Below, piece by piece: positions 11,883 through 55,277 of a stretch of DNA of 64,000 bases. The stretch's first letter is position 1. Each line of letters opens with the position of its first letter. The stretch is taken from the NCBI GenBank assembly GCA_000004985.1, contig GG738845.1; one strand, written 5' to 3'. This DNA comes from Naegleria gruberi (lineage: Eukaryota). The notes under the pieces were generated by a model. That model was given only the letters and a program-made list of their open reading frames with translations. It did no database searches and was not told the origin of the DNA. The position numbers and the translations under genes were made by a program.

Positions 11883-14800
11883 TTACAATCTTGGTTGACG
11901 AAGAGGAATTTCAGTATTTGGAAGTATGGACTTGTCTGTCTTTGGAGTTGTCTTTCTATATTGTTGCAATTCACCAACAAACTCGAACAACTTATCAATT
12001 TCATTATATGGTGGTAAGAGGGAAACAACAGACTCAGATTTTGGTGCATCCTTTGCTCCCTTCTTTGAAGTTGATTTTTCGACCTTGACAGTTGTTTGGA
12101 GAATACCCATCTTGTCAAAAATAGCAACAGTGTTGGAAAGAGTCTCAGATGAACATGCTTCATAGAAATGAACTTTTTGATCAAAGTAGAGTTTTTCAAT
12201 AAACCATTGCATTCTTTCAACAAGAGCCTTCTTTCTAAGTGTTGGAATTTCTTGTTCATTACCTGAGAATGGCAATGAAATAAGTGCCATGGAAGCTCCC
12301 CAATAGGCTTCAATGAAAGGCCACAATAATGAGCAAATAAATTTGAGATTTTCCAAATACAAGACTGGAATGAATACCTTTTCATCTTTGAGTTGGAAAA
12401 TACCTCTCTTTGACATGGCATTAATGACGCTCATGAAGTCATCATGTTCCTCAGGTCTTTCCTTATAAATGAATTCAAGAGAGAGAAGCTCATTCAAAAA
12501 TTCACATCTCTTTAACAATTCAGAAAGAGGAACGCCTTGGTCAATCATTAATTTTTCTCTGAATGAGTAGAATGAGCATGAGACAATACTTTCAACAAAG
12601 AATAGGTGAATAATTTGATTTCTATAATAGCTGAGTTCCAAAATCTTCTTATAGTCTGACTTGACTTCAATAGCTGGTTCTAACATGTTCTTATTCTTCT
12701 TGATAATATTATTGATCAATCCAAGAGCTCTGTTCACTACTGATGCTGTAGTTTGTGTCTTGGACCAGTAAACATTTCCTCCTCTTGAAATAATTTGATT
12801 CTTTAACCAATCGGTCTTGCTTTGTAATTCTTCCATACTAATACCTTCTCTATAGGTTAATAAAATTGTAGAAACGAGAGCAATAGGCATAATGACGACA
12901 GATTGATTCAAATCATAGGTAATCTTGGTACCAAGATTTTTAACAAGGGTATTCTTGTCATCATCTTGACCGAATGGATCGAATGAAGGAGATTCTGATT
13001 TCATATTTTCAACATAGTCCTTCAATGAAATTGGTTCAGCAATTTTGACATGAATGTCGCCATACTTTCTCAACAAGACAGAACTTGCAGAGATGAGAGC
13101 AGAGAGAGATTCTCCCTTCTTATTTCCTCCTAACAATTCTCTAGTATGTGATTCACTTTCAATAACCTTTTCATAACCAATATGAATAGGTACAAGTGTG
13201 AGGTTATCGACACGCTTGTCTAAATAAGTATCAGCAATGGTTTTCAAAAGTCCAAGTTTCGGTCTGAGAGTTTTGCCACCTCTTGAACGAGTACCTTCAA
13301 CAAAGAATTCAACAGGATTACCATCAACGAGTAAACGTTGAACATATTCAGAAAAGATGGCCTTATATACCTTGTCAGAACCGAAAGATCTTCTCATAAA
13401 GAAAGCACCCGAGTATCTGAATAAATCACGAACTAAAAACATGTTTAAAAAGTCTTCTCCAGCAGCAATGTGTGGAACTGGAACACCATATACAAAGAAA
13501 ACATAGGAAACAATTAAGAAATCAATATAACTTCTGTGAGTTGGAATGAATACAAGAGTTCCTGATTCTGCCTTTTTAGAAATTTCTTTCAATTTTTCAA
13601 TTTCATTTGTGTCGACCATAATAGATTGATACATTCTACGCCAAATCTTTCTTAAAATCCAACCAAATGCTCTAATTGCATTATTATTTGGGTCAGCAAA
13701 CATTTGGTCCATAATTTGGAGAGCTCTCTTTTCAACATTCATAACAGAAATGTTGAGAGTTTCAGCTTCAGATAATATGGCATCTTGTACAATTTTTGAT
13801 TGTAAAACTGTTTGTTTGACTTGTTCTCGGGTTTGACCATCAGTGAAACGGCCTGCAGCTGTAAATGCCAATTCTACATCATTATAGAGATTGTTAATGA
13901 AATTATACTCATTGGACTTGATCAAGTCAGTGGTGGTTGGTGGTTCAGGATTTTCCTTTAAAACAAACTTGTGGAGACCATAACAGAAATATTGGAAATA
14001 GGTGGACCAATTAATAAGACTCCAATCAAGAGTAAACAAGTCCTTTTCATTTTCTGGTAATCTGTGGAAAGCAGAATCCAAATTGGCAACATCAAAGAAC
14101 CATTCATTGAGGGTAAAGTGATGGAAATTTGAGGAGAGATTGGATTGACGGGAGGCCATCTTTTTAAATCCTTCTACAGCTTTAACTGCAGCCTTGCTTC
14201 CAAAAATAGTGGCAATCAACCCATATAATTGAATCATCCAAGTGTATCTCATCAAGTATTGTGTCTTGTAGAAGAATCTATTTGTAATCATATTAAATTC
14301 AGCTCTTGAAACACTCTTATCAGGTTGGTGAGTGTGCCAATATCCTAAAAAAAGTTAATAGAATAAGAATATATAAACTTACTGAGTGTTCCTGTGACAG
14401 TATCTTGCCATCTGCCTGGATTAGATGTGGAAGTACCACAATGGTAAACTCTCAAACTTGATTTTCTTGTTGCAATATCAGCTGGACAAATAATCATGGC
14501 ATTGGAAACAAAATCAACTGGAACTTGATCTGATACAACCTTAGTGTTACCAGGAAGCAAGTGAATAATACCAAGACCACTAAACAAGTAAACAGAACCA
14601 CCTGCAGATACAGCATCAATCCAACCAGGAACAGGATCTCTCAATGCAGCACCCACAATGGTTGGTCTCAAAATTGCAACATTGACATCTCCCTTATATT
14701 TGGCAACAAGTGCTTCACCAATTCTCTTAGTGATGGTATAGGTATTTGGATAACCTGTAAAGGCCAATGCCTTTACAGTTGCCTTTTCAATTTCTTTTGG

Positions 14801-19000: not shown

Positions 19001-19484
19001 GGAGAATAATACAGGTACAGTCAGTTTTGAGGAAGAGATGGACCGTCTAACTGTTGAAAACAAGCAAATAACTGAGACAAACAAACTTCTTGAACTTCAA
19101 ATAGCAAGTTTCTCCAAGGACGTTTATTTTGAAGAGAGCCAAAAGTTTCAACAATTATATTTGGCTGAGAGAGAAAAAACGAACAAACTGTCAGCTCAAT
19201 GTAAACAGTTTGTACTAAAAATTACAGAGCAAGAGCAATACATAGAAAGTTTGAGTTCAAAATGTGAAAGAGCTTTTGATGACATTGCAAGAGAGAGACA
19301 ACGAACTGAAGTAGCCCTCAGATTAGTAAAAAAAGGACATAAGGAAAAGGAGGAATTTTTGATTGAAATAGAAAACCTGAAACATCAGTTCGAAGTTGCT
19401 CTTGATGTTTTAAGGAGAAATCAATTTGAACAAGAGTTTTATAGAATGCTAAAGAAGAGCACTTTAATTAAAGGAATCTTGTAA
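16062..19484 (+). CDS. Large coiled-coil protein (Ser/Thr/Pro-rich N-terminal region, about 900-residue heptad-repeat rod), function unknown
   Basis: 1140-aa ORF. The true ATG may be MLDEVSSS at about 16140. The long K/E/Q/L-rich heptad region contains a roughly 11-residue tandem module ([57 protein letters not shown]...). Confidence 0.5.
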
Positions 19485-22400
19485 TGATTCGTAGCGTTCT
19501 AGGTCAACAGCTGAAACAGAAGGAGTAATATTATTGAATGCCTTTTCAAAATCATCTTGACATACAACAATTTGGTGTGATTGCTTATTGGAAATGTCAC
19601 CCTCACTAGTTTCCCTGCTTACAGCATTCATAAAAGCGTCTGTGCAAATAGCATAAAAATCGGCTCCTGTTAGATTAAATTCTCTGTTTTGTAGAAGTAT
19701 TTTCAAGTTTACATCATTTGCAAGGTTGAATTTTCTTGTGAGAGCATGTAAAACTTTGAGTTGACCTTCATGTGTCTTTGAAACTCCCAAATAAACTAAT
19801 CTCTCAAATCTTCCCGGTCTTAAAAGAGCGGGATCAATCAAATCTGGTCTATTGGTTGCACCAATCACGAAAACTCCCTTATTAGATGTAGAATCCTTCT
19901 CATCATCTGAGGCATTAGAAATATCATCCAATTCAGCCAACAATTGGGAAACGACTCTATCACTAACACCTCCAGAATCGCCACTAGCACCTCTATTTGG
20001 TGCAAGAGCATCTAATTCATCGAAGAATATAACACATGGTTTTGCTTGGCGTGCTCTTTCGAATACAAGTCTAACATTTCTTTCACTTTCACCAACATAC
20101 GCATTAATTAACTCGGGTCCTTTAACACTCATGAAATTCAATTGACATTCAGTTGCTACTGCTTTTGCAAGAAGAGTCTTACCACAGCCTGGTGGACCAT
20201 ACCTTTGTACCATATTGATATAAAATTGTGAAATAAAAATTATTACTTACAATAAGACACCACTTCTTGTTTTGAGATTTGAGTGGGATTGGAGAGGTGA
20301 TTGAATGATATCAAGAATTTCCTGTTTTGCATGTTCTAAACCACCAATATCTTGCCATTTTACAGTTGGGATAGATAAGTTGGTTGTACTACCTGCATCC
20401 TTGCCTGCTACGGCATATTTTTTTAACCATTTCATTCCTCCATTCACAAAATGTTTGTGAGATAGGGTGGATGTGTAAACTAAAGATGAAACTTTTGATT
20501 GTTGTTGGTACTTGTTGACATGTTGAAGCGATTCTATTATGGCTTGTGTCTTGGAGATTTGAACGATATTGTTCAGGTCATGCACAGAGCATCCACTGGT
20601 TTGTTTAACAATCTGTGAGGTTGACAAATCAATATTACAAATTGATTTGATATCAGTAGTATTCTTTCTAAAGAATAAATCTCTCTCCTCTTCACTCAAG
20701 TTTCTTCTAAATTCAATCTTGGTTAGGAATATATTTCTGAATACTGGACTTAGCAAATCTAAGGATGAAACACTTGGAATGAATATCATAGGGTAAGGAT
20801 TATTCTTTGATTTGAGAGATTGTTTGAGACATTTAACAATTCTAATCTTGGAATGTTGCTTGATGTTGGTACCTCCATTATTATTGTTGCTCAATTGATC
20901 AAAGGCTTGGAAGTGCTTAATGTAGAGTACACAAGGAGTACATTGTTTGGCAAGTGTAAAACATTGAGCAAGATTTTGGGCTGTAATGGCATCTGATTCA
21001 TTGATAATTTCAAAAGCATTAATTTCTATAAGATGGAATCCATACTTGGTACAAATAGAATGAACAGCATGAGTTTTTCCTGAGCCCTCCTCGCCATAAA
21101 TTAAAAAGTGTTGTTGAACTAGATTCTTTTGGCTTGATCTATTTGGCTGTTTGTGAATGGAAATGATTGGCTCGATGGCTTTGCAAAGTTTTTTGAAACC
21201 ACTCACTTGATTTTCATAGTCCTCATTGATATCTGATGGTATGTATCCCCTTACAGGTTGGGCATTGGTAATGACAGCAGTTTCTGTATTATCAATGATG
21301 AGTGTTTCATCTGAATCAACACCCAATTCGAGTGTATCAACTCTATAACCAGTATAGTCTCCATGAATTGGATCCAATCTTTTGCTTGCTTCCAATTGTG
21401 CCAAAACTTGAATCTGAACTGACTCCTCAGATTTAATAAAATCAATATTTGGATTCTCCACTAACACAATATCATTCTTACGTAATGCTCTCTTATGATT
21501 TGTAAAAAAGATTTCTAATTGTTTCTCGAAAAGTTGTTGTTCCAGTTTTTGTTCTTCCTCTGTTCCTTCTGTAAGTGTATTTCCGAAATGATTTGGACTT
21601 TGTATTGGTGTGAGAACAATTTTAGAAGCTACCTTTGGAGCATTTTGGTTGGACATTATTTGAATACGTGTTGGCTTGCCGAGATTAAAGTACAATGATT
21701 TAGTCAATATTATATCATCCTCAACACCATGAATGACACAAATTAAAGAACTGTGTGTATTATTCAACTTCACCCAACTATTATCAAAGCAATTGAGAGA
21801 GGCAAATAGTTTGGAACTCAGTAATACCATGGAGAGTGGATCTGCAGACAAGATTTGCTCTATGTTTTCATTGACACATTTTTCAAGATAACCACGGAAG
21901 GTTTCTGTAGTAACCGATTTGATATTTGTGGTTGAAATTGTGATTTGATTTTTCATTGCTATAAAATCAGAAGATAACATTTCTTCTAGGGAATCATTTC
22001 CCAATAATTCCATTTCAATATTTGATAAATTATAGATACGATCTGGCACACTTGCACCAGGTGTATTGAATAGAATGACCTTGGTCTTTTCATCAATTAA
22101 TCCTTGTCGAGTTGGAGTTGTATCAACAATTTGAAACAACAATTTTCCTTCATCAATAATACTAAAAGTATGAAACCTGGTCAATAATGTTGATATTTGT
22201 TTTTTGGTAAAATGTAAAAATTCATATTCATTCTCTGAAATCCAATCTTGTACATTGTTATCATTTTCTGAAATAATTGCTTGCACAATAATTTGCTCCA
22301 AAATAGGAATATTAGATTTTTCAATAATTTGAATATCAATAGATATAACAAATCCCTCCTCAACTACATGATCCAATAGATTTTCCAAATAATCATTTCC

Positions 22401-22619
22401 AACCAAAAATTCTATTATTTTGTTGTTATCACTATTTGTTGGCTTGTTATTCATTATTGTTAGTAATGTTTGCTCGGAAACAAGAGCTTCTGTCATGAAA
22501 GTCTCATTCACTAACAAGTACACTGATTTATCACTGCTACTACTAACAGTATTATTCATTGACTTTTCCACCAATTTATGACAATTCAGGTGGGAGACTT
22601 TCTCTAGGGTTGCTTTCAT
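19464..22619 (-). CDS. PEX6: Peroxin PEX6 (type II AAA ATPase). Two exons: 20251..22619 and 19464..20202, with a 48-nt GTAAGT...ACAAAG intron
   Basis: The D2 AAA domain [73 protein letters not shown]...[10 protein letters not shown]...[31 protein letters not shown]...[11 protein letters not shown] is near-identical in pattern to PEX6 D2. The D1 Walker A upstream is degenerate ([10 protein letters not shown]). The junction reads ...RSGVLL|YGPPG after the in-phase intron is removed. Confidence 0.85.
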
Positions 22620-22813
22620 TTTTTTAACTTGATGATTCTCTAGTCAGCCACAACATTGAACATCAATCGAAGGAAATAAAATTGATTGAAACCTAAAGAT
22701 TTATAAAACCAAACTTATTCTATTTATTTGATTGTTATTAATTTATTGTTTTGACATCATTAGGATTGAATTTATTATTTTAATTATTCAAAATTTGTAA
22801 AAAGAATAAAAAA

Positions 22814-23180
22814 ATGGTTCTTTATAAAGCTTTGTGGATAGGTGGAGTTTTGGCCTTGTTGCATTCATTATTATCGGCTGCTCAAGGTACGTATCTAGCA
22901 AACATTAACTTAATTGTAGAATATTTGGATAAATTTTACAGTGCAAACAGCACAAGAAGGATCTTTACCTTTGGATATTGTTGTTGAATGTTTAATTGGA
23001 GCACTTTCAAGCTCTTTTGCTTTTGTAAAATTGAATACTAGTGTGATATATGATGATGATGGAATTTCTGTGGCAAAATCAAGTCCAAATCCTGGTAGAA
23101 TTACCGACGGATGGAAGAATATTGATGCTACAAAAGCAATTGCTTCATCTAAAATGTATGTTTTAATTATTGCATCATAG
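22814..23180 (+). CDS. ER membrane protein complex subunit 5 / membrane magnesium transporter (EMC5/MMGT1)-like. Two exons: 22814..22886 and 22942..23180
   Basis: Exon 1 is MVLYKALWIGGVLALLHSLLSAAQ. A GTACGT...TTTTACAG intron of 55 nt follows. Exon 2 continues VQTAQEGSLPLDIVVECLIGAL.... This is similar to MMGT1 (...[40 protein letters not shown]). Confidence 0.55.
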
Positions 23181-23443
23181 TGGCTGATATATTATAATAG
23201 AACTGTCGAGAGCATCAATAATAGAGTGAACTTTTCTCACTTTAATCATAGAGCAAAATACTTATACAGAGAAGATGGAAATGTTGATAATTAATTTCGA
23301 AAATGTAAATTGATGATTCTATTAATCTTTCTAATAATTTTTATCAAAATTAGAAAATAACAATCTTATTTAATTTTTATACAATTTTTGTAAAGGTTTA
23401 ATTTGGTATTTTTGCAAAAATTTTAAACATGAGAGATTAAATA

Positions 23444-25115
23444 TTAATGGTGTTGCTGTATTGAGGCTTGAACCTTTTTTTGTAAATTTTGATAATAGTC
23501 ATCTATTCGTTCTAGTTTGGTATTTAATGAAGTAATAACTTCCATATCCTCCATCAGAATAATTGCTTTCTCGATATTAACAGAATTCCTCAAATAAATA
23601 GGTGCCAACCTAGCATGTTCAGAAATTGCGAGATCCACAAAAGGGACAGTAAATAAGGGGACATAAGGGAAAAAGGGAGTTTTAGCAGCCTTGGTGATAA
23701 TTGTAGATAAATTCCAAATCTCATCTATTTGAGTGTTGTCTATGGTTACCATAAGAGCAAGTTTCAACCCATTATGAAGAATGTCAATAAAAGTTGAAAT
23801 GAGTTGAACTACTGGATGTTGTGGATTATCGTGCTCAGGACATAGCTTTTTTTGAGTAAATGGCCTTAGAATTGCATCCAATACATTAAATACATCATTA
23901 ATTTTTGTCTTATCCATTGACATTTCCAAAAATCCCATATTCCTTATATCAAACCCCATACATGTCTTGATAACATTGGGAAAATTTTGTACAATACTTA
24001 TTGGTCCGTTCTTTTCAGCAGCCAGAAGAAACTCAAGACTTGCTCTGAGATTAATGTCCCACTTGACTAAATTTTTCATCTCAGGGGTGGATGGGTTATT
24101 TCTAGACTCGTACTCAATAACCTCACTTACAAAATATCTTACAATATCTAAATACATAGATTGTTCCTTATACTTCCTCCTTCCTTGGCAAACAAACGAC
24201 AAATTCAACAATGCCATACCAGCATATGTATTGGTAAAACAGTCCATGTAGGGTGCCAATAAAAGTTTTGCGTGCTGAAAACAAATTTCTGCATACTCTT
24301 TTGAACCTAGGCGCAGCTCTCTCCATGCTTGTAACGAAAATACAACAGCCTTAAAATCATTCCCAGCCTCATCCAAGTTCTCAATCAAATGCCCAAACAA
24401 ACCTTTTGGGATTATCTCATACATTCTTTAGAGAATTAGTTTTGAATATTTCAAAGATTACTTACTGGAGTGAATAAAACCCAAGAATGTTTTTCTTATT
24501 TGCGTGAATTGCATTAGATGTATCATTAATAGTTGGATTTTGAATAGAGACAACTGGGGGATCAGATATTGTTTTACCTCCATTCTTTCTTTCATATTCA
24601 CATTTAATTCCTCTCTTTGAGCAATTAGAGCAGGAAGGAAGATTTCTAGTGCATTTACGATGATTTCTTCTACAGTATTTGCATGAAATTGAACTGAATG
24701 TTTGCTCCTCAAATCTAATTTCCTTAACATATGGTTTGAAATGTAAATCCTTATTTTGACTATTTACACCCGAACCCGAACCATTACTATTACTTTCCTG
24801 TTGCTGATGAAGATTATTTTGATGACTTGTTGAGCAGTTTGGATTTGTATCTAAATGGCCAGTTGTGATGATGGGATGATGGTGCGCAAAAGACAAATCG
24901 CCACTACTAGTATTCGTCACGAATGTATTATGATGATGGATGTTATTGTTGCCATTATTCCCAACCACACTATGATTACCACTACTACTGGTCAATAACG
25001 ACAGAAAATCCAACAACCCAATGTTGTGCTGGCCGTTTTGATGTTGATGAGGAAACATTTTTTTGTTGCTGAATAACAGTTCTTGAAAAAGCATCTGGCC
25101 ATACTTAAAATACAT
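23444..25115 (-). CDS. Zn(II)2Cys6 binuclear-cluster (GAL4-type) transcription factor. Two exons: 24466..25115 and 23444..24425, with a 40-nt GTAAGT...TCTCTAAAG intron
   Basis: The motif CKYCRRNHRKCTRNLPSCSNCSKRGIKCEY is a canonical Cx2Cx6Cx5-6Cx2Cx6C cluster. It is preceded by a His/Asn/Gln-rich region. The intron is in phase. The downstream exon encodes a 326-aa helical regulatory domain. Confidence 0.7.
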
Positions 25116-25959
25116 TCAAAAACCCCTAAACGAGATAAGGAACAACTCAAATTTTATCTCCTCCAATAAACTCGTAACAGGATTGGCCGTTTCAAATCTC
25201 ATCATTGAGGAGAAACTCGAATCCTAATTGATATTTAAGGTTTCAGCTTCATTACCTCATATCTGTGGTAAGGTTCTAGACGCATTTTTGCAATGCTCCC
25301 AAAAAACATGGAATGCTCCCAAAGCTGATTTACCTGTAGGGGTAATTGGATGTGCCAATAACACCGATTTCATTCCTTAAGCAAATTCACTCAACTTCAA
25401 CAAAGCATATCTCAATAACAACACCATATGTTAGAGAAACATGCCGAATTGTCATTATTCATTATGTTAACAATCATAATATCAAGTTTGTTACAGATTT
25501 GGCTCTTTACTTATCGAGAAAAGTGATTTCAAAATTTTCATATGTGGTAGTAAGACGAGCATGTTTTCTCGGTTAATACAAATAGTTTATATTCAAGAAA
25601 ACAGTATCTTGTAGAATACATCAATTAGAACATGAATAATAAAAAATATTTCTATTTCACTAAGTATTAAATTAAATATTTCCTTTTTTGTAAGGAGCAT
25701 GGGAAACTTTTCCACAGATATCAAAAGGGTTATCCAATTTGAAGGGTAGATATATTTTAACTCCAGGAACAAATAGTAATAATCATGAAGATTTATCAAA
25801 CAGTCCATCGCAAATCCTTAAATATTGAATCCATATTTTAAAGAAAAGAATTAATGATTGAATGTTTTTGTTTAACCTAAAATAATAATATCAGGTAAGA
25901 ATTATCATTTATAGAATTATATGGTGATATTGAACTTTTTTAGTGGTATGTGTTATTTA

Positions 25960-27215
25960 TAGTAATAAATTGCAGTAAGCGTTAAGCTTATGTTGGATCA
26001 TTTGTTGGTTCCTTAATCAAATATGTGAAAATTCTAACAATTTTTATATGATTTGTGTGTTTATTTAATTTTTTAAATTTAAAGCACTGCTATGCAGAGA
26101 ATTAGTTGTCAAGTTTTCAGATATTTCAGTATTTCAGATTTGTTTTTATGGTTTTTTAAGGTTTTTTGAATTGATTAGATGGTTTTTTGGGCTAGTAGTT
26201 GCAACTATTAGAAGTATTAGAGTTTATATATTATACAAAAATTGATTAATGATATCCTCAATCATTATTTATTATTATTATTATTCTTACGAATTAATCT
26301 ACACGCGTGTAATAGAATAAACTCAGTATTTCAGAAACGACACTTTATTTTGTTATTGATAAACCTTTTAACTAATTTCCATGAATAATTGAACAAAATT
26401 ATTAATTGAAACCTGGTAAACCATAGGAATTGATTAGCTTTTTGGAAATGTGTTTAAGTTAAAATTACCAACAAAAAATACATTCAAATCACTTTACGAA
26501 TATTTATTGACCCTACTGTAATGAACAGTTTTTCGATTTAATTTTAGGTTAATTTTTTAATGGGACTTGGATTTGGATTAAAAGGTTGTGTTTTTAAGAA
26601 AAAAGTAAAATCCTAACTATAGTTTGGTTATTTATTGGATGAAAAAGTTGGAAGCATTAACTAAACAATCCCAGAACCAAAAAAGAAATGCTGAAATTGA
26701 AAAGGATAAACAAACTTCTCAAATCAACCAACTCGTAAAACAATGAAAGAAAGAAGAAGTCAATATAGAAAATCAAGATTTGAATTAAAAATCTAACACA
26801 ATTTAATTGAAACAACTTTAAGAATAAAAGAGAACCTATTAAAAATCGAGAGTATCATAAAATTCGTGTAGTAAAACTCAGTATTTCAGAAACGACTTTT
26901 TATTTTGTTGATTTGATAAACTAAGCAATGCTATTAAAGTAATTGCTTTAGATAAAAATTATTGATCTATTATAAAGTAATGTTTCTTAAAAAACACTTA
27001 CCACAACATTGGAACAAATTAAAAAGGGAATAAGAGAATTAGTTGTAAAGTTTTTCAGATATTTCAGATTTGGTTTTATGGTTTTTTAGGGTACTTGATT
27101 TCAACAATCCACATACATTCAAAGCTACATATTTACTCTATTTTGTTTTTTCTTTAATTCACAAAGAATCATCTACCGTTTTTGTATTAAATTGCAGTAA
27201 GAGTTAAGCTTATGT
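25960..27215. repeat. Three dispersed short repeats (about 30-70 bp each) present twice within a 2.4-kb AT-rich intergenic spacer, in opposite order but the same orientation
   Basis: (1) attgcagtaagcgttaagcttatgttgg at about 25969 and attgcagtaagagttaagcttatgtagg at about 27190. (2) gagaattagttgtcaagttttcagatatttcag...atttgtttttatggttttttaaggt at about 26097 and the near-identical copy at about 27035. (3) aactcagtatttcagaaacgac...ttattttgtt...gataaac at about 26319 and about 26877. Confidence 0.6.
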
Positions 27216-27527
27216 AGGTTTATTAGATTTACTTAACTAAATGCTTTTCCAAAAAATCCACCAATTCCTTAAGAGATCCTAGGTTTTTGAATGTTGGAAC
27301 ATTATGAGTTAATAAATTTGCATAAATAAAACAAAGATTATTAAAGGAATTGTAAACGATTTGTTTGTTTTATGAAATGAAGATTAAAACGTATGCAAAA
27401 ATTCCAAGCCAAAAATAATGCTTGGCGGTTTGAAACTTCTTTCATCACAAAAAAAATAGATCAATATTCGTTTGATGTCTAATACACCATCATCAAGACT
27501 TTATTTTCTAACCGATAGATTTGAAAA

Positions 27528-28397
27528 ATGTTCAAACGTTTTGTAAATAATCAGGCCCTACTCAATGGTCTGAAGCACATTAAACGATCCGACAATAATG
27601 AACAACAACAAATTGTTGTTGCCGGAAACCAAACAACTGGTCTTATTGTGCCAATAGGTGCAACATCAAACAAAATTGGTATTGAATTGCAAGAGTTTTG
27701 CAACACACTAGTGCCAACAGATTCGGCAATATTCAAAATTGCTAAACAGATTTGTGCAGAACAGGGAAATAGAATCAAGGAAATTGCTCACGAAGTGTTG
27801 AAAGATTCCGGTTTAGGTACTAATATCAACAACAGTAATATCAATAGTAGTAACACTAAGAATAGTAGTAATGTCAAAATATCGTCTACTCCTTCTTTAA
27901 CTCACAATAGTCAGCCTACTGTCATCATCTCCGAACAACAAGTTGAAACCAAAACTCCCACACAACCAATTGTAAAAAAGCATGGCAAATTCTATGGAAC
28001 CAACAAAATATTCCTATTAGATGAAGAAGAAATTGTAAATATTAGCAGTATTCCAACCTCAAACACCACTCCTATCATTGGTAACTTTGAAACAAATGAT
28101 GGTGACATACATTCTACCCAATCTTCGCAATCTTTGAATCTGGACATTGTAAAACGACTTCTCTCGGATATATTTGGTAAATTGAAATACTTGGCAATGG
28201 TACTTTTGAATAGTTTGTTTGGAAATAGACAAAATGTTCAACCTGATGCAGCAACAACGCAAGTAGCTGCACAATCATTGGTGTTGGTGATATCATTCAT
28301 GATTTACAATATTGTAGCAGAAAGTTCTTCTGCCGATTTGCATCAAGATATCTTACTTGTTTTCCAAGAGTACCTGTCCAATCACTTGAACAATTAA
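27528..28397 (+). CDS. Hypothetical protein (Asn/Ser-rich middle, hydrophobic C-terminal region)
   Basis: 289-aa ORF with an ATG start. I recognise no family. Confidence 0.4.
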   Translation: MFKRFVNNQALLNGLKHIKRSDNNEQQQIVVAGNQTTGLIVPIGATSNKIGIELQEFCNTLVPTDSAIFKIAKQICAEQGNRIKEIAHEVLKDSGLGTNINNSNINSSNTKNSSNVKISSTPSLTHNSQPTVIISEQQVETKTPTQPIVKKHGKFYGTNKIFLLDEEEIVNISSIPTSNTTPIIGNFETNDGDIHSTQSSQSLNLDIVKRLLSDIFGKLKYLAMVLLNSLFGNRQNVQPDAATTQVAAQSLVLVISFMIYNIVAESSSADLHQDILLVFQEYLSNHLNN

Positions 28398-28523
28398 CTG
28401 TAGAACTTGTAAAAGTTTAGTTTGGACACAACTTTGAAAGTATTGTACCTCATAAGAGTGAACTAAATCGGGTTTTTGGAATTAGTCACTTTGGCGTGTT
28501 GCAACAATAAATTAGTTTATAGT

Positions 28524-29647
28524 CTAAGTCAAATCAGTTGGATCAAAAGCATCATCGGCATTATCTTCTTCAACAGGTTGCTGCTCATCGCCTGAATCTG
28601 AGTCTTCTTCTGAATTTTCATCATGACTCAAAAGACTCTTCTTTTTAGCATCTACTGGTTTTGGTTGTCTTGGTTTTCTGGTTTGGGAAGATAATTCAAT
28701 TCCTCCAGAGAGTGTTAATTTTGACACCATCTTGTAAACTGTTGCTTCCAAGTATTTGAGGTGATGATTTTGCTTAGCAGTTTCCAAAGCAGTACTATCC
28801 ATCCTCTCGAATGCATCCAAAAAGTCTTCACTGATATCGCTCTCCTTTGATGTTCCATAAGAATTGTGTTCTGATTGGAACTTTTTATGATACTCATCAG
28901 CTCTTACGTAATCGTCCATTTTAAGGCAAATGAGGATAATTGATGTACAGGTTTTGTTGACATTATCATGTTGTGTGAGGGCCTTGTATCCAACAATCAT
29001 TTCCAAACAATTTGAAATTGCCTCTTCCCATTGAGAATTTCTGATCAAAAAGTCATTGTAGCCTCTATACGTCGACATGGCATTATGATATGTTCCTCCC
29101 ATAGATAAGCTTTCAACAGCACTCTTGTAAAGCTCGATAGCTTGTGGGATATTTCCGTTATCTGCTAACATTTTAGCTGCCTTGGTGAGGGCCTCTCCAG
29201 CTCTATTACCCTTACCATCATCCAAATAAGAATTTGATGCTTTAGTGTACAATTCAACTGCCATACCGAAATCTTTAGTGTCTTTACAAATATTTGCTGC
29301 ATTCTCAAAACCTTGTCCTGATTTGTAGTATCTGTTTTAGATTTTGGTCGATTAATAGCAGTCAAATTACAACATCAATAAGAATGAATAACTTACATTC
29401 CACACTTGTAGAAACAATCACCACAATTTGTATAACAAGAAATGGCTTTTGCTGGCTGTTTCAAAGCCTTGAAAATTGCTGCTGCTTTTTCATAGGCAGC
29501 ACCTGCGGAATCATAATCAGGTTTCCATCTAGTCAAACTTCTAGAGGCACTGCAATTGCAATAATTATCCAACTGTTAATATAGGAAAATAACTTACTAT
29601 TTTTTAGCTTCCTTTTCCAACTCTAAGGCTTCCTTCTCCTTACTCAT
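28524..29647 (-). CDS. Gamma-soluble NSF attachment protein (gamma-SNAP). Three exons: 29598..29647, 29397..29549 and 28524..29331
   Basis: The joined N-terminus MSKEKEALELEKEAKKYASRSLTRWKPDYDSAGAAYEKAAAIFKALKQ matches gamma-SNAP (...LAKAEKYLKTGFLKWKPDYDSAASEYGKAAVAFKNAKQ). The introns are GTAAGT...TTGCAG (48 nt) and GTAAGT...AAACAG (65 nt), both in phase. The downstream part is TPR-like helical repeats with an acidic tail. Confidence 0.8.
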
Positions 29648-35646: not shown

Positions 35647-38624
35647 TTATAGTTTTCGTTTAATGGTTCCTGGGTTAGATATTTCAATCAAATCTCTAAA
35701 GCAAAGAGCTCGCACCTGAACATTGAATAGAGATTGTAGTTTAGAATCATCCTTCTTTGCTTTTTTCATTTGTGCAAATCTCTCCAACCATTCAGCCACT
35801 TCAATTTCATACCTTACATTCATTTTACATTGTTCCAAGGTGTTTTTTGCCATGTACAAGTCTGGTGTTTCATGTTTTTCTTTTGTATTGTCACATAGGA
35901 ATAGAGTTGGATGGTAAAAGGCTAGATTGTACTCATAGCCTTCCCTCTTTGTGAGAGGTCTGATGAATTGATTGAGAGATTGTCCTTTCATAGGTTGAAT
36001 GAAAAATAATTCATTGAGCACCAACTTTTCGATCCATGGCCTTTTCGAATATTCTTTCGTATTGATGGAAATGAATTCGGTTTGATATATCGTAGAAGGA
36101 CTTGTAAACATGTCCGTAAATAGAGTTTTGAGCTTGCTTTGGACCTTCTTCCATGTTTCTTGAGAGATTTGTTCTGATGTTTCTGCTGTATCGATCTGAG
36201 AGGAGAGAATTGACTTTCTCTTTTGCTTTCTACCTTTGAAAATCGTTTCATCTTTGTATGTAGAGCAACATCCCTCACAATAATACTTGATAATGGTGTT
36301 GACTTCCTCTGGTGTAATGTCAATACATGAAAAGTGATAGTGATTTCTGCATCTTTCACACATAACCATTTCATTGGTTTTCCAAGATCCTCCACATTTA
36401 CAAAAAGTATTCTTCTTTCTTTTAGAGACTGATTTACCGGATTGGTGCTCTTTCAAAGCTTTACAATATTTACAATTAAATGCTCGTTTTTCACTGTAAT
36501 CAGTGGCCTTTTCCCCTACACATTTGCAGTGATACCAAATCTCACAACTCTCACACTGTATCATATCATCTCTTGAGCTATCATATATACCTCTACAGAA
36601 ACAATAATTTGTATCTTGTTGTTCAGTTCTAACACAAGTATTACAGTGGAAGGTTTTGGAAGGTGGGTTGTGAACTCCAACGCATGATTTGTGGAATACA
36701 TTATTGCAAAGATTACACTCAACCTTATCTCTTGGCTTGAGCTCGAGTTGACAAAAACAACTAGTCTTAGATTTGGGAATGAGTTGTTTTGGATCAAATT
36801 CTTCCTCATCGTCAGACATGTACTTAGCTGATTCAGAATTGGATTGGAATTGCTTTGTAAGATAATTCATTGTTTCTAGCGGTAAACTACTACTATCACC
36901 ACTGCTGATTAATTGTTCAGCAGTGGTATCGCTTGTTTGAATAGTTACATCTTTGAAAATGGAAGATAATGTATTATATTCCTCTTCAAATAGACCTTGG
37001 TTGCTTCTTATTTCATCAATTTTGACTTGCCAACAAGCTAAAAAGTCAACAATGTTTTCCTTTGGTATATCACCTCTATTATTGTTGGCATCATAAAGAA
37101 AAATATGATTAACTTACTTTAGTGCTGTAATAATCTTCTTGAACCAAGATTGCTCTTTGAAACTTCTTGGAGAAATAATGGACTGATGGATAATTAGGAC
37201 AAGATCGTCATTCTTCTCTTCACCAATTATTTCCAAGGTTTGTTTAACATTTTGCTCTTTAAAAACCAAGCAACGCAGGGCTATTTCGATCAATTCAACA
37301 ATGAGAGGATGAATGTAAAAGAAAAATCTGAATTGAGTTATACAGGGACTTATATCTTCTTCAGTAACATTGTTTCCACTTTAAACAACAACATTCTTAT
37401 CCAAACATTGATAAGGCTATTAACTTACAATTTCGATTTTACAGAAGGTAATGATTTCAATAGTGGCAATAACTCTTTAGAAAAGAGAATTTGTAAACAT
37501 TTTTCGTCTGGTAATGTGAAAAAAGCTCTAGTAAAAATAGAGAGTGGGCAATAGTGGAAATGTCTAGTATACAAATGCTATTCCATTTCAATAATTTCAG
37601 TAATCACATTGAAACTTACCTTGAGAGAGTTGGAAAAATGTTTGAGGGATGTAAAATCGTTCATTAAAAATTTCAAAACTTCATAGCTAGGTCTTAAATT
37701 AACATTGAAATTTTTCTGAATAAAGAGATCATTGGTACATTTCAAAAATAGTGGCTTTGCTAATGATTGAGTTTTGAACGTTTTGATTTGAAATCTGCTC
37801 AACTGTTGTACAATATTAGTTTGTTCAATTAAAAATAGTTTAACTTACATCAACATTCATCCCTTCCAAAATATCAACTCCCTTCTCATCCACTCTCAAG
37901 ATATTAATGATTGGAAATCTTGAAGAATATGATGAACACAACTCTAACCATTTTCCAATTTGAGGTACATTGTGAGTATTCTCGAAAACAAATACGATTG
38001 CCTTCTTTCCACCAGGTGAAGAATATGTCATTTCTTTAAGGGCGTCGGGTAATCCAAATACTTTGTTTGTATACTTTTGTGCAATTAGTGTCAATAGAGC
38101 TTTTAAGGTTGGAAACATTGTCTCTGATCTGAAAATGCAAACATGAAATCCGTCCAATTTTTGTCCTTTTTTTGGAGCTTCTTCCTCATAATCTTCATAG
38201 TCCTCGTATTCATCATATTCGTCATCATATTCCACATATGAATCTCTAATGAAAAATGATTCCATTAATTTGTCTATTATTTCGAAACAATTAACATTCG
38301 AAATGTGACATTTAACCTACTTGTTGTTGTTTTCAAAATGATTACAGGTGAAATACATTTACTCAAGCCTTTATCAAATCTTTCTGCAATATCCTGTAAC
38401 TCTTCAATAATTAACTCTTCAGTGTGGGTATTTTCTTCAGCACTTGCCTTTCTATTGATAAACTCTTCCACATTATGAATTGATGAATCTATAATTTTCT
38501 GATATTTATCATGTTTTAAAAAGTCCTTTCTTGCCTCCGATAAGTCTTGTTCTTCAAGAATCAACTTCTTCTTGTGTGATCTCCGCCTAGAACGAACAGG
38601 TATTGTCAAAGAGTTGTTTATCAT
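35647..38624 (-). CDS. Multi-PHD-finger protein of about 916 aa. Six exons: 38321..38624, 37849..38273, 37620..37802, 37429..37577, 37118..37378 and 35647..37075
   Basis: Four separate track ORFs plus unannotated sequence join through five in-phase short introns. They are GTAGGT...AATAG (47 nt), GTAAGT...CAACAG (46 nt), GTAAGT...GGAATAG (42 nt), GTAAGT...TTTAAAG (50 nt) and GTAAGT...AATAATAG (42 nt). The C-terminal half has three PHD fingers (CFCQ...HKSC...C, CFCR...HCKC, CKCG...HFSC...C). Confidence 0.6.
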
Positions 38625-41263: not shown

Positions 41264-44111
41264 CTAGAGAAACTCTAACATTAATTCGTTTTCTTCTGGC
41301 AATGGAGCAATTCTGAAAGCCTTGACATGCATTGCTAAAGTTCTATCTGTTGTAAGGTAGTGTTCATTGATGTGAGCTAGGAGGTATAAAAGAAATTCTT
41401 CTAGAATAAATTCAGAACCATGTTGTTTGAATTCATCATGCAATTCATAAATAATTTCAATGAATTTTTCATGCTCCTTGAAATGTTCTTCCAACAAGTC
41501 GTTTTTAAGTAAGCATTCAATAAAGAGTCGTCTTTCTGCTTCAAAGGATTCTTGTAATGATTCAATGGCATCTTCCAAAATATAAATCCCAATATTCCAC
41601 TCCACTAGAGACACATTCTTGTTGGCTTTTGCCATTCTGAAAATTGATTTGGTCAAGTTATTAATTGTATCGAATAATTTCATGTAGCAAGTATCAATAA
41701 CACCTAAATTATAACCCAACTGATTAGTCCAAGCAATCAATTGTTCTCTAGGCAACACTGTAAGATTATTAATGGTTACCAAGTGTTGAGATTGTGTTGA
41801 GGTTGGTATTGTTCCACTCACAACATTACTTCCTCCATTCAGGTTATTACTTGCTGAGGAACCAGCTGTTGAACCATTTAGAACAGCACTGAAATCATCC
41901 ATAGATGAAGTCTGTCTGTGTGGAGTGGCAGATCCACTACTTTGACCGCTTTCTCCTCTATTTTTTGTAATCTTCTTGAATAGTCCAGCAAATCGATTAG
42001 AATCCTTGGTATCATCATTAATGATAATTCCCATTTCTTTTGCAACTTTCTTGCATGATTTGTGTTGCTTGTTTTGAATTTTTACATTGGCACCTCCAAT
42101 AGTAATCAAGAGATTGGAAGTTGATGGATTATTCAATTTCAATGAGAGATGAAGCCCCGTATCACCATCATTATTTTGTTCATCAATAGACATTTCATTA
42201 CTTGATATCAAAACCCAAAAGAATGCCTCATTGGGAATATCATGATTGTACAGGTAGCATTTTGAAGCAGAGAATGGAATGTGTACTGGTGTATTAGTAA
42301 TATTACTGCTATTATCTCCATAATACGATGGAGAATCACTGCTACTATTGCTGTTATTATCTGCACTGCCTGTTGAATCATTTTCATTACTGTTTTGGAA
42401 GGAGAAATTATTATTGACAGTTGGCGTTGAAATAATAGTTGCAGAATCAATTGGTTCACTTCCACTATTTGGTGTAATAATATTTGAGTTGACAACATTG
42501 GAGATGGAATTACCAACCAAGTTGACTGTATAGTGAAGAACAGTATTTCCCTTAACTCTATCTTTGAAATTTAAAAAGGCCTGAATTCTATCTAATGGTA
42601 TGAATTGAATTAAAATGCAAAACGAAATGAAATAACCCTGTTGAGCACATATATGAAGGAGAGTTTTGCCTAGTTGATCATCAGATCGAATCCATCTCTG
42701 AAACTCATCCAATGCATAATTTTTACAGAACCAATCACACAATTTGAACAACAATGAAGGGAATGGAAGTGAGCAGAATAGACAATTTTCCTCGAATCGG
42801 TTCTTTGTTGCAATGTTAATATTTGGCTGTTTAAGAATGAATTGAACTCGAGGCCAATCGTTCGATTCACATGCATCGTGTAAAATGGTATTTCCTCTCT
42901 TTCCCTTAAAATTGACATCAGCTCCAAACAGAATAAGAGCATCTGCTGTTTCAAAAAACCCTCCCGACAAGGCTATACCTAATGGAAAATTTTCATAAGC
43001 ATCACGAATATTAACTTGAGCTCCTTTTGATGCCAGAACATGACAGGCATCAGTGTGTCCATGAGCACTTGCTAAGAAAATTGGAGTACTATCCGATTTG
43101 TCAACAATATTAGGATTAGCTCCATACTTGTCAATTAAATATTCAATAATATGAGTATGACCAAATCTTGAAGCAATATGTAATAGTGATCTATCATTCT
43201 TTGTCTTGTCTCTAAATATTTGATTAATATCAAATAGTATGCCACCTCCTCCACCACTAGAAAATGAAGTATTTGACGGAACAAATAGGGATGTTGAATT
43301 GCTACTGGTAGAATTACCACCAGATGGTGACGAAGAGCCACCACTAGCCACTCTAGGTGAAATTGGATAAGTATTGTTTTTAATTGAATCCAGTAATCGA
43401 ACCAATTCATCCAAATACCCATACTCAATGCAGGCCAATACACGTTGTTCCATTGATAATTTAACATGTTCAAAATCTATTAATTGATCTCCTAATTATT
43501 ATTCAAAGTATTAACATGTGAATGTTGAATTAGATAGACATACCTGTATATAAATTATTTCCCAAATGTGGAGCTTCTAAAGTTAACAAAATTGGAGAGG
43601 ATCCAATTTCCAAATCATTCAGTTTAATCATGATGGATGGATTTGAATCTTTCAACCTATCATTTTGATGATTATCTGTAATATTTTCATCACAATCCAA
43701 TTTCTCTCCAAATTCATGGTAATGCATCTGCTGATTTTGAGAAGAGGAATCACTGAGTTGTGTGTCTTCTTGTTTCTTGTTGATTTTTTCATATTTTTCA
43801 CTTAGAATTTCACTACTCAGTGAGTGAACGCTCATATTTTCTATGAGCATTAAATCATCAGATTTTAATCTGTGATATGGAATGGTATTGTCCCCTAGCA
43901 TACACCTCCTAATACAATACAAGTCAAAGTGATATTTACATAGTGTTTTAATGGAGTGTTTTCCGGAAATTAGATTGTAATGAATGCTACTGGTACTTGA
44001 GAGAGATGTTAAATTATTATTGTTTGATGATGAGATGTTCATTGATGAAGAGGAAGGAAAAAGATTGGCAGATGATGAGTGTGGAGATGGTTGAGACATT
44101 TTTTGTAACAT
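41264..44111 (-). CDS. Ankyrin-repeat protein of about 930 aa. Two exons: 43544..44111 and 41264..43491, with a 52-nt GTATGT...TAATTAG intron
   Basis: The Ser/Asn-rich N-terminal exon joins in phase to ...GDQLIDFEHVKLSMEQRVLACIEYGYLDELVRLL. About six ankyrin repeats follow (HIASRFGHTHIIEYLID..., TPIFLASAHGHTDACHVLASKGAQVN, NTILHDACESNDWPRVQFIL...). The tail is a long Ser/Asn low-complexity linker and a helical C-terminal domain. Confidence 0.6.
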
Positions 44112-53236: not shown

Positions 53237-55277
53237 TTATTTAGAAGCTTCTCTAATTTCCTTAATGAGCTTCTTCTTGTAAGCATCAATGTTATCCTTA
53301 TAAATCTTGACAGTACCCTTTTCAACTTGCCAGATTTGCTTATTTTCTATCTTATCAATCAATCTAAAATCGTGAGAAACTAAAACAACACCGCCAGAGT
53401 AGCAGTTGATAGCTTCAGCAAGAGAGTCAATTGTTTCAATATCAAGATGGCTGTAAAAAGATAAATTAGAAATTAAATTCAATCTAATATACTTACTTAG
53501 TAGGTTCGTCAAGGAACAAAATAAATGGCTTCTTAAGAGCTAACCAAGCAAAAATCAATCTTGATTTCAAACCATCTGAGAGACATTTAATTGGAGCAGT
53601 TTGACGTGTACCACTGATACCATAAGTACCAATAGCAGCTCTCATCATTTCTGTACCATTAGAGTTATTTTCAATAAGGTCTGGGAATTCCTTAAACATC
53701 CATTCTAAAGGAGTCATGTCTTCATCTAATTGCTAAATAAATAGTTAAAATTATTGACAGGTTATTAAAAACATACTTCAGTCAAATGTTGGTGGTAGTG
53801 ACCAATCTTCAAGTGGGAGTGAAGATTAATATCTCCAGAGACAGGTTTAAGTTGCTTAACCATGAGTTTCATCAATGTAGATTTACCAGCACCATTCTAT
53901 AAAGAGTGTTAAAAATTTCAATTAAGGATATACTATTGACTACTTACTGGACCGACGAGAGCAATACGGGAATCCATATCAACACCCAAAGATAGCTTAC
54001 TGAATAACAATGGAGGTTCTGGCATAATTTCAGTAGCTGGGTAGTGGAATGAGACTTCGTTAAATTGCAAAACTGGTGGTGGCAACTTTGGAACATCTGG
54101 GAATGTGAATTTGAAAATCTTGTCAGCAGTAACCTTTTCAGTTAAACCACTTCTCATCATCTTTTCAAGTTGTTTTTCCTTAGATTTGGCTTGTCTAGAC
54201 ATTTTGATGGATGTTTGACCGAACTTGGCAATATATTCCTTCATTCTACTGATATCATCTTGTTCAGATTGATATCTCTTCATTTGATTGACTTCTAATT
54301 CTTCTCTAGTCTTGCAGTAGGTATCATAATTACCTCCGTAATAAGTTAATCTTTGATCTTTGAGATGGATAATTGATGTACAGACATTGTTAAGGAAATC
54401 TTGAGAGTGGGAAATGATAATTAAAGAGTTTTCATATTCTTTGAGGTACATTTCAAGCCAGACACAAGTTTCAAGATCAAGATGGCTGTATATTATTAAT
54501 GGATGGAAATAAGATTGTAATTATATGAAAATAAGAATTAGGTCAAAAATCATAAAACACTTACTTTGTAGGTTCATCGAGAAGCAAAACATCAGGTTCA
54601 ATGAAAAGAGCTTCGGCCAACTTGATTCTCATTCTCCAACCACCGGAGAAATCCTTAGTTGCCTTCAATTGCATTTGAGGAGTAAAACCCAAACCGTGCA
54701 AAAGTTTAGCAGCCTTAGGTTTCGTCCATTCTGGATCTAATTCTTCCAACTTATCCATGATGAGTTCTTGTCTTTCAGTTGTTGTCTTTGGATCGTTCAA
54801 TTCCTTTTCTAATCTTTTACGTTCCTTATCGACACTTGATAAAACATAGTCAAGTGCACTCATATCGGTTGGTTTAGCTTCACCTTGTAAGTGATAAATT
54901 GAAATTTGCTTTGGAATAGGAATCATTCTTCTACCCAAAACTTTGAGAAGAGTGGATTTACCTGAACCATTCAAACCGATTAAACCGTATTTAACACCTC
55001 TATTCAAACAAAATTCAGTGTCATCAATAAGATCAACTGAGGCAGAGAGTTGTGGTGAAGAAATGGATATAGAAAAGTGTTCAAATTTCAAGTCCATAGA
55101 AAGTGGGTGAGAAACCAAATTACCAGTGGCTGAAATGTGAAGAGTTGTTGTGGAAGCATCTTGTTGAAGTTCGTGATTTTCGTCATCACTATCATAATCA
55201 ACCTTTGTTGGAGTGGTACTAGCAGGAGAAGGAGTATTGGATTTACCACCTTTCTTGTTATTCTTCTTTGGAGGCAT
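53237..55277 (-). CDS. ABCF-family ATP-binding cassette protein (GCN20/ABCF-like, two NBDs, no TMD), 606 aa. Five exons: 54565..55277, 53948..54485, 53777..53896, 53497..53732 and 53237..53450
   Basis: NBD1 has Walker [12 protein letters not shown], signature LSGGWRMR and Walker B LLLDEPTN (split by intron 1 after DEPT). NBD2 has Walker A VGP|NGAGKST (split by intron 2), signature LSDGLKSR and Walker [10 protein letters not shown] (split by intron 4). The four introns are 79, 51, 44 and 46 nt. They use GTAAGT or GTATGT donors, and all are phase-consistent with the track coordinates. Confidence 0.85.

What the first reader, a model, noticed from the sequence alone, without database searches (positions are those of the whole stretch)
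25116..27527. 2.4-kb AT-rich divergent spacer with a rearranged duplicated block of three short sequence modules
Most intergenic spacers in this window are 100-450 bp, so this one stands out. It is flanked by the Zn2Cys6 factor gene (minus) and a hypothetical gene (plus). It contains three roughly 30-70-bp modules that each occur twice with more than 85 percent identity. The second set is in the opposite order but the same orientation, so it is not a simple inverted or tandem duplication. The modules contain the reiterated word cagatatttcag / cagtatttcag. Possible explanations are remnants of a small non-autonomous transposable element, a recombined duplication, or clustered regulatory or ncRNA-like elements. 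No ORF with coding-like composition lies in the interval.
Basis: seen in the sequence. Interest (0 to 1): 0.5.

Follow-up and report, generated by a model that had tools for sequence, protein, structure and literature searches.

The report
Short local duplications in Naegleria spacer
An unusually long, AT-rich gap between two Naegleria gruberi genes contains three short sequence patches, each copied once nearby in mirrored order; they are real but look like non-functional local copying in fast-evolving DNA, so the finding is fairly ordinary.

Summary
The window is Naegleria gruberi, not a yeast. The 2.4-kb ORF-free gap is the largest in the window. It holds three module pairs, all +/+ and ordered A B C ... 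C' B' A':
- A: 25957-26002 / 27179-27224
- B: 26096-26162 / 27033-27092
- C: 26306-26364 / 26865-26921

Each pair scores 55-60 bits; the best of 200 dinucleotide shuffles scored 42.5.

The modules are isolated patches of 46-67 nt. Their flanks show no similarity in either orientation. They have no other copy in the 64 kb. They are absent from the syntenic contig of a related Naegleria, whose spacer is only about 640 bp. I found no Rfam match, shared RNA fold, Pfam remnant, terminal inverted repeat or coding signal.

Best reading: recent, locus-private short-patch duplications inside about 1.7 kb of lineage-specific AT-rich DNA. Template switching or templated repair is the likely cause. A relic of a dispersed repeat family is the main rival. 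It could not be tested because no Naegleria genome was searchable here.

One feature stays unexplained: the three pairs share nearly the same midpoint, around 26600. Interest is low to moderate.

The parts
25116..27527 (.). Divergent intergenic spacer between the Zn2Cys6 gene (minus) and the 289-aa gene (plus). It is the largest ORF-free stretch of the window. The conserved Zn2Cys6 start codon is probably at 25060, so the true spacer may begin at 25061.
   Evidence: orthologue start in L002
25117..25193 (.). Promoter-proximal block next to the Zn2Cys6 gene. It still aligns with the related Naegleria contig (L002 5463-5544).
   Evidence: (z 5.4)
25601..27332 (.). AT-rich core (about 25% GC) with no alignable counterpart in the 640-bp spacer of the related species. 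This is roughly 1.7 kb of lineage-specific extra DNA and it contains all six modules.
25957..26002 (+). Module A (extended 25954-26020)
26096..26162 (+). Module B. It contains 2.9 tandem units of TTTCAGATA / TATTTCAG at 26115-26139.
26306..26364 (+). Module C (36-nt core at 26319-26354). It shares the 13-mer TCAGTATTTCAGA with B.
26636..26790 (+). Broken coiled-coil-like reading frame (MKKLEALTKQSQNQKRNAEIEKDKQ...) between C and C', with weak coding-like codon usage and no Pfam match. It is either a possible decayed coding fragment or a chance effect of A-rich sequence.
26865..26921 (+). Module C' (core 26874-26909), the copy of C
27033..27092 (+). Module B', the copy of B with one TATTTCAG unit fewer
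27179..27224 (+). Module A' (extended 27176-27236), the copy of A
27229..27231 (.). Breakpoint against a 99.8%-identical strain. Contig L001 is collinear with the window from here rightwards. Its 36 nt to the left match nothing in the window. The breakpoint sits at the right edge of module A'.
27333..27527 (.). Promoter-proximal region of the 289-aa gene, conserved with L002. It includes CCAAAAATAAT..GGCGGTTTGAAAC at 27408-27436 and TAACCGATAGA at 27509-27519.
   Evidence: (z 9.6)

Best explanation
The three module pairs are recent short-patch duplications of about 46-67 nt, private to this locus. They arose inside about 1.7 kb of lineage-specific, neutrally evolving, AT-rich intergenic DNA of Naegleria gruberi.

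The likely cause (inferred, not shown) is templated copying from donors a few hundred bases away on the same strand. This could be replication template switching, or synthesis-dependent repair of breaks with template jumps. Two routes would give the nested order A(B(C..C')B')A':
- One event that jumped progressively backwards, copying C, then B, then A.
- Successive events, with the outer pair the oldest.

The reiterated TATTTCAG word is a small slippage-prone tandem repeat within B, not a demonstrated binding site. Nothing indicates that the modules have a function.
For: Shown:
- The pairs are far above chance.
- Each module occurs exactly twice in the 64 kb, both times in this spacer.
- The boundaries are sharp. 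Sequences before, after and between the modules show no similarity, direct or inverted, with all z below 1.2. This excludes one decayed large tandem or inverted duplication.
- The syntenic contig of a related Naegleria (about 79% nucleotide identity in coding DNA) has a 640-bp spacer and none of the modules, although promoter-proximal blocks on both sides still align. Copies that are 85-94% identical must therefore be much younger than the species split, and they are not conserved elements.
- The B/B' difference is one unit of an 8-9-nt tandem repeat, which is typical of slippage.
- There is no Rfam match, no shared fold, no Pfam remnant, no terminal inverted repeat and no coding signal.
- A 99.8%-identical strain diverges completely at 27229, the edge of A', which suggests the region is structurally unstable.
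- The outer pair is more diverged than the inner pairs: 15% for the A core against about 7% for B and C.
Against: - The copy number in the rest of the 41-Mb genome is unknown. No tool here could search a Naegleria genome, so 'private to the locus' is shown only for 64 kb.
- Short-patch copying does not explain where the about 1.7 kb of extra DNA came from.
- The 111-nt and 86-nt stretches between C', B' and A' have no identified donor.
- The shared midpoint of the three pairs (spread 23.5 nt; 0.4% of random placements, post hoc) is not predicted by independent events.
- The strain breakpoint rests on 36 nt at the end of a metagenome contig and could be a chimeric join.
Confidence: 0.5

Rival explanations
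1. The extra DNA is the decayed, rearranged remains of one or more copies of an uncharacterised repeat or non-autonomous mobile element of N. gruberi. The modules would be its best-preserved parts, for example reiterated subterminal TATTTCAG motifs, and would also occur elsewhere in the genome.
For: - The spacer is about 1.7 kb longer than in the related species, so DNA was gained here or lost there.
- It is the most AT-rich stretch of the window.
- B and C share a 13-nt core, and the 8-mer is reiterated in one orientation.
- A near-identical strain differs from 27229 leftwards.
- Most repeats of N. gruberi are reported as unclassifiable (PMC12344493).
Against: - No terminal inverted repeats, long terminal repeats or target-site duplications.
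- No transposase, reverse-transcriptase or integrase remnant in six frames.
- No translated similarity to anything else in the window or in L002.
- No further copy in the 64 kb.
- Two copies of one element should be collinear, not in reversed order.
- No matches in the viral collection for modules A, B and C. The only metagenome match, for the module C core, is a chance 24-mer in a GC-rich bacterial contig.
Confidence: 0.25
2. The modules are duplicated cis-regulatory units shared by the divergent gene pair, that is, clusters of transcription-factor sites built around TTTCAG(A)TATTTCAG. Selection would preserve them while the surrounding DNA decays, which would explain the sharp boundaries.
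For: - Sharp islands of about 90% identity sit in otherwise unalignable DNA.
- A reiterated core word is shared by four of the six modules.
- The modules lie upstream of a transcription-factor gene.
- The arrangement is near-symmetric around about 26600.
Against: - The modules are not conserved in the related species, where the whole spacer is 640 bp, while the real promoter-proximal blocks are conserved.
- They lie 0.3-1.5 kb from either start codon in a genome whose intergenic gaps are mostly 100-470 nt.
- There are no CGG-type Zn2Cys6 half-sites in the modules (read from the sequence).
- Copy number of the core word varies between B and B'.
Confidence: 0.12
3. The modules are small non-coding RNA genes or parts of an unannotated spliced transcript, for example snoRNA-like genes in a cluster, or introns of a long 5' leader of the Zn2Cys6 gene.
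For: - The minus strand of B and C carries CTGA words.
- B on the minus strand shares AACTAATTCTCT (branch-point-like plus 3' end) with the 40-nt intron of the Zn2Cys6 gene.
- Intron-like GTATGT...CTAAT strings overlap A and B'.
Against: - No Rfam family reaches gathering score in the window, and none touches a module at E<=10.
- Fold z-scores range from -1.9 to +1.4, the two copies of a pair do not share a fold, and the minus strand of B is unstructured at 0 kcal/mol.
- There is no C box or terminal stem (read from the sequence).
- The splice-like signals are not shared by both copies of a pair.
- The modules are not conserved in L002.
Confidence: 0.05

Closest known systems
Templated insertions and complex micro-duplications from template switching (FoSTeS/MMBIR, synthesis-dependent repair with 'filler DNA')
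   Same: Short patches are copied from donors within about 1 kb on the same chromosome. Boundaries are sharp, several patches are joined in an order different from the donors, and the same orientation is possible. The event lies in non-coding, AT-rich, structurally variable DNA.
   Different: - Junction microhomology cannot be scored without the pre-event sequence.
- The patches are separated by 86-111 nt of DNA with no identified donor.
- The divergence of A versus B and C hints at more than one event.
- The mechanism is inferred from the end product only.
Non-autonomous DNA transposons (MITE-like elements with reiterated subterminal motifs) and their decayed relics
   Same: An AT-rich, non-coding insertion-sized block is present in one lineage and missing in a relative. 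A short motif is reiterated within it.
   Different: There are no terminal inverted repeats, no target-site duplication, no second locus known, and the motif occurs in one orientation only. The reversed module order is not what two element copies would give.
Nested insertions flanked by target-site duplications (for example long duplications made by some non-LTR retrotransposons, such as the 49-bp duplication of SLACS in trypanosomes; from my own knowledge)
   Same: The direct repeats are nested like brackets, A(B(C..C')B')A', with the outer pair more diverged than the inner pairs.
   Different: Three successive insertions of only 240-500 bp, each with a 46-67-bp duplication, would be needed. 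There are no poly(A) tails, no coding remnants and no known element of that kind in Naegleria.
Duplicated cis-regulatory modules (shadow enhancers, homotypic site clusters)
   Same: Islands of conserved sequence repeat within one intergenic region upstream of a transcription-factor gene.
   Different: There is no orthologous conservation, and the distances from the genes are unusual for this compact genome. No factor or expression data were available.

Membership tests
MITE / non-autonomous DNA transposon | Terminal inverted repeats at the ends of the element | tested here: not met
   The best inverted pairs are 13 nt (25112-25124 / 27282-27294, E 0.017) or 70-82% over 20-32 nt at unrelated positions. 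None brackets the extra DNA or the modules.
MITE / non-autonomous DNA transposon | Target-site duplication flanking the insertion | tested here: inconclusive
   The insertion boundaries cannot be placed to the base because the orthologous spacer is unalignable between about 25260 and 27330. No duplication is seen at the one candidate breakpoint, 27229.
MITE / non-autonomous DNA transposon or any dispersed repeat family | Multiple copies at unrelated loci in the genome | not testable with these tools
   There are no other copies in the 64-kb window. No Naegleria genome is in the searchable DNA collections. The metagenome scan gave one chance hit, and the viral scans for modules A, B and C gave none.
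LTR retrotransposon / solo LTR | Long (at least 100 bp) terminal direct repeats, and internal gag/pol remnants | tested here: not met
   The direct repeats are 46-67 nt with no similarity beyond them. There are no Pfam hits in six frames.
Simple tandem or inverted segmental duplication | Collinear (tandem) or reverse-complement (inverted) similarity along the whole duplicated block | tested here: not met
   The order is reversed and the orientation is direct. The inter-module gaps and flanks show no similarity in either orientation.
Known non-coding RNA families (Rfam 15), including C/D snoRNAs | Match to a covariance model, or a stable fold shared by the copies | tested here: not met
   There are 0 matches at gathering score in the window. 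The 5 matches at E 1.6-8.9 all lie outside the modules. Fold z-scores range from -1.9 to +1.4 with no fold shared by a pair.
Conserved cis-regulatory element | Conservation in the orthologous intergenic region of a related species | tested here: not met
   Only chance 9-13-mers of the modules occur in the 10-kb syntenic contig L002, whereas promoter-proximal blocks align at z 5.4 and 9.6.
Template-switch / templated-repair micro-duplication | Short patches copied from nearby donors in cis, with sharp boundaries | tested here: met
   The patches are 46-67 nt, lie 555-1222 nt from their partners on the same strand, and their flanks are unrelated.
Template-switch / templated-repair micro-duplication | Microhomology at the junctions, and an empty-site allele without the copies | not testable with these tools
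   This needs the pre-event allele from other N. gruberi strains. The only near-identical strain contig stops 36 nt beyond 27229.

The most novel reading that the evidence does not exclude
The mirrored layout may be the footprint of a defined process rather than a coincidence. The three pairs are direct repeats, share a midpoint within 24 nt, keep similar spacing on both sides, and the outer pair is older than the inner pairs. One such process would be an uncharacterised Naegleria element that inserts repeatedly into its own centre and makes 50-70-bp flanking duplications. Another would be a replication-linked mechanism that pastes consecutive short fragments in temporal (reversed) order. Either would be a new kind of rearrangement signature if it recurred at other loci.
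Probability: 0.08. Interest if true: 0.55.

Novelty: new member of a known kind. Interest (0 to 1): 0.2.

Why it matters
As it stands, little. It documents that intergenic DNA in the compact N. gruberi genome can grow by kilobases and acquire short local duplications within the time separating close Naegleria lineages, and that such regions may differ between near-identical strains.

It would matter more in two cases:
- If a genome-wide search showed the modules to be a dispersed family, most N. gruberi repeats being still unclassified.
- If the mirrored, same-orientation layout recurred elsewhere, pointing to a specific rearrangement mechanism.

It also warns that a Zn2Cys6 gene plus a 33% GC window does not mean yeast.

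Tried and rejected
1. Rfam at gathering score on the whole window and at E<=10 on the spacer found nothing on the modules. tRNA/tmRNA scan found none.
2. Scans of public collections for module cores:
   - Metagenomes gave one 24-nt chance match in a GC-rich bacterial contig.
   - Viral contigs gave none for A, the long B pattern or C.
   - A 17-base B pattern gave more than 120 chance hits and is uninformative.
3. I looked for more strains or species through exact-protein look-ups and two homology searches:
   - One related-species contig spans the spacer (L002).
   - Fragmentary contigs from one near-identical strain were found (L001, L125 to L127). L001 enters the spacer only at its right edge, from 27229.
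   - Spurious spacer ORFs and the Zn2Cys6 exon are not on record.
4. Global MAFFT alignment of the two spacers was meaningless. Tiled local alignments with shuffles were used instead.
5. The terminal inverted repeat and target-site duplication search found nothing convincing.
6. Six-frame Pfam and tblastx against the window and L002 found nothing.
7. RNA folds of all six modules on both strands were not significant.
8. The idea that B derives from, or is, an intron was dropped. It shares 12 nt with the neighbouring gene's intron, but the match is not significant on its own and the splice-like signals are not shared by both copies.
9. A decayed palindrome was rejected because there is no inverted similarity between the arms.
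10. Literature searches for the sample accessions and for Naegleria repeats or introners found nothing specific to this locus.

Full report
**Source and setting**

The 289-aa ORF at 27528-28397 is 100% identical to a 'predicted protein' of Naegleria gruberi on a 1.55-Mb contig. The window is therefore from this heterolobosean amoeboflagellate, not from a yeast.

On the minus strand, the ORF at 24462-25115 carries a Zn2Cys6 domain (PF00172, E 2.4e-8). It is joined by a 40-nt GTAAGT...AG intron (24426-24465) to the ORF at 23444-24424. The start codon shared with the orthologue is probably at 25060.

The ORF-free stretch between the two genes is 2409 nt. It is by far the longest in the window: the next are 800, 751 and 726 nt, and most are under 470 nt. 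GC is 27.0% for the spacer and 24.9% for 25601-27400, against 33.5% for the window.

Three direct-repeat pairs exist:
- A: 25957-26002 / 27179-27224, 85% over 46 nt with a 28-nt core at 96%.
- B: 26096-26162 / 27033-27092, two blocks at 94-97% separated by an 8-nt indel, plus a 1-nt indel.
- C: 26306-26364 / 26865-26921, with a 36-nt core at 94%.

All copies are plus/plus and the order is A B C C' B' A'. The pairs score 55-60 bits. In 200 dinucleotide-preserving shuffles of the spacer the best self-match averaged 30.8 bits and never exceeded 42.5.

Each module occurs exactly twice in the 64 kb, both times here.

The indel in B is one unit of a small tandem repeat, TTTCAGATA, with 2.9 copies at 26115-26139. 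B and C share the exact 13-mer TCAGTATTTCAGA. Five of the six plus-strand TATTTCAG words in the window lie in the modules.

**The modules are isolated patches**

Alignment of the sequences before, after and between the modules gives no score above shuffled controls, in direct or inverted orientation. All z values are below 1.2 (alignments).

With cores at about 90% identity, a single larger duplication that decayed uniformly is excluded. So is a decayed palindrome.

The core divergence is about 15% for A and about 7% for B and C.

**Comparison with relatives**

A 10-kb Logan contig, L002 from SRR25266755, comes from a related Naegleria. The 289-aa protein is 68% identical, and coding DNA is about 79% identical over 19615-25067. 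The contig carries the same genes in the same order, but its spacer is only about 640 bp.

Only the promoter-proximal ends align:
- Window 25117-25193 with L002 5463-5544 (z 5.4).
- Window 27333-27457 with L002 5862-5979 (z 9.6).
- The block just upstream of the ATG.

The roughly 1.7-2.0 kb in between has no counterpart. None of the modules occurs anywhere in L002 beyond 9-13-nt chance words.

Orthologous neutral DNA is saturated at this distance. Module copies that are 85-94% identical must therefore be much younger than the species split, and they are not conserved elements.

A metagenome contig from a nearly identical strain (L001) is 99.77% identical over window 27229-29355. Its first 36 nt match nothing in the window or in L002. 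The breakpoint coincides with the right edge of A'. This suggests structural polymorphism at the module zone. It rests on one contig end, however, and could be a chimeric join.

**What the spacer does not contain**

- No Rfam family at gathering score in the window, and none over a module at E<=10. No tRNA.
- No significant or shared RNA fold for any module on either strand.
- No Pfam domain remnant in six frames.
- No translated similarity to the rest of the window or to L002.
- No terminal inverted repeats or target-site duplications.
- Codon usage is non-coding throughout, with two weak bumps. One is a broken coiled-coil-like frame at 26636-26790, between C and C'.
- Scans of viral and metagenome collections returned nothing meaningful.

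**Interpretation**

The best-supported reading is that the modules are recent, locus-private short-patch duplications within lineage-specific AT-rich DNA that evolves neutrally.

The mechanism is inferred, not shown. The likely process is templated copying from donors a few hundred bases upstream on the same strand, by replication template switching or synthesis-dependent break repair. It could have been one event that jumped backwards through C, B and A, or successive events with the outer pair oldest. The tandem TATTTCAG units add slippage.

This reading leaves three things unexplained:
- The origin of the about 1.7 kb of extra DNA.
- The 86-111-nt stretches between C', B' and A', which have no identified donor.
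- The shared midpoint described below.

The main rival is a relic of an uncharacterised dispersed repeat or mobile element. It cannot be excluded because no Naegleria genome could be searched. Most N. gruberi repeats are reported as unclassifiable (PMC12344493). Against it are the missing element hallmarks and the reversed order.

Regulatory and ncRNA readings are disfavoured by the lack of conservation, family match and structure.

**Unexplained geometry**

The three pairs share almost the same midpoint: 26590.5, 26595.8 and 26614.0, a spread of 23.5 nt. The A-B and B'-A' gaps are 93 and 86 nt. The B-C and C'-B' gaps are 156 and 123 nt.

Random placement of the second copies gives so small a spread in 0.4% of trials, or 2.5% given reversed order. 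This test is post hoc.

Because the modules are direct, this is not a palindrome. Nested flanking duplications, or a backward multi-step template switch, would fit the order but do not predict the symmetry. I record it as unexplained.

**Verdict**

This is a real but ordinary feature. Interest is 0.2.

The decisive test is a genome-wide nucleotide search together with an allele comparison across N. gruberi strains.

Noticed in passing
window 23444-25115 (minus); L002 3769-5392: This is a Zn2Cys6 binuclear-cluster gene (PF00172, usually called 'fungal') in Naegleria gruberi, with an orthologue in a related Naegleria. The homology search with its DNA-binding exon returned no N. gruberi protein, only the Logan orthologue, so the public N. 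gruberi gene model may lack this exon.
   Followed up: partly
L002 9918-10125 versus window 19429-19636: The end of the 10,125-bp related-species contig aligns (85%) to the window segment lying immediately upstream of the segment that aligns to the contig's start. The contig therefore closes on itself. This could be an assembly-graph artefact, a tandem duplication of about 10 kb, or different synteny in that species.
   Followed up: no
L001 1-36; window 27229: The contig of a 99.8%-identical strain (ENA ERZ929261 / ERR1078381) carries 36 nt (AACCCCAAGGGCCCTCAAACTTCTGAACTCACTCTCTTT) that match nothing in the window or L002. Two further mismatches are clustered just inside the junction. This is either a structural variant or a chimeric contig end.
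   Followed up: partly
window 24426-24465 (minus); 26096-26107 and 27033-27044 (minus): The 40-nt intron of the Zn2Cys6 gene (GTAAGTAATCTTTGAAATATTCAAAACTAATTCTCTAAAG) shares the exact 12-mer AACTAATTCTCT, and a TGAAATAT word, with the minus strand of modules B and B'. This is not significant on its own.
   Followed up: partly
window 27408-27436 and 27509-27519; L002 5935-5962 and 6015-6025: Short blocks upstream of the 289-aa gene are conserved between the two Naegleria: CCAAAAATAAT..GGCGGTTTGAAAC and TAACCGATAGA. They are candidate core promoter or 5'-UTR elements.
   Followed up: no
window, minus strand, e.g. 14345-14382, 29550-29597, 37803-37848, 43492-43543, 53451-53496, 53733-53776, 53897-53947: Many very short (38-65 nt) GTAAGT/GTATGT...YTAAY...AG intron-like strings occur, several at junctions between adjacent ORFs. 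This explains why genes appear as split ORFs under a bacterial-style ORF listing.
   Followed up: no
window 26607-26632: An imperfect 26-nt palindrome, with the perfect 10-nt core AACTATAGTT, lies 6-30 nt from the common midpoint of the module pairs. About six perfect 10-nt palindromes are expected by chance in this AT-rich spacer (my own rough estimate), so it is probably a coincidence.
   Followed up: partly
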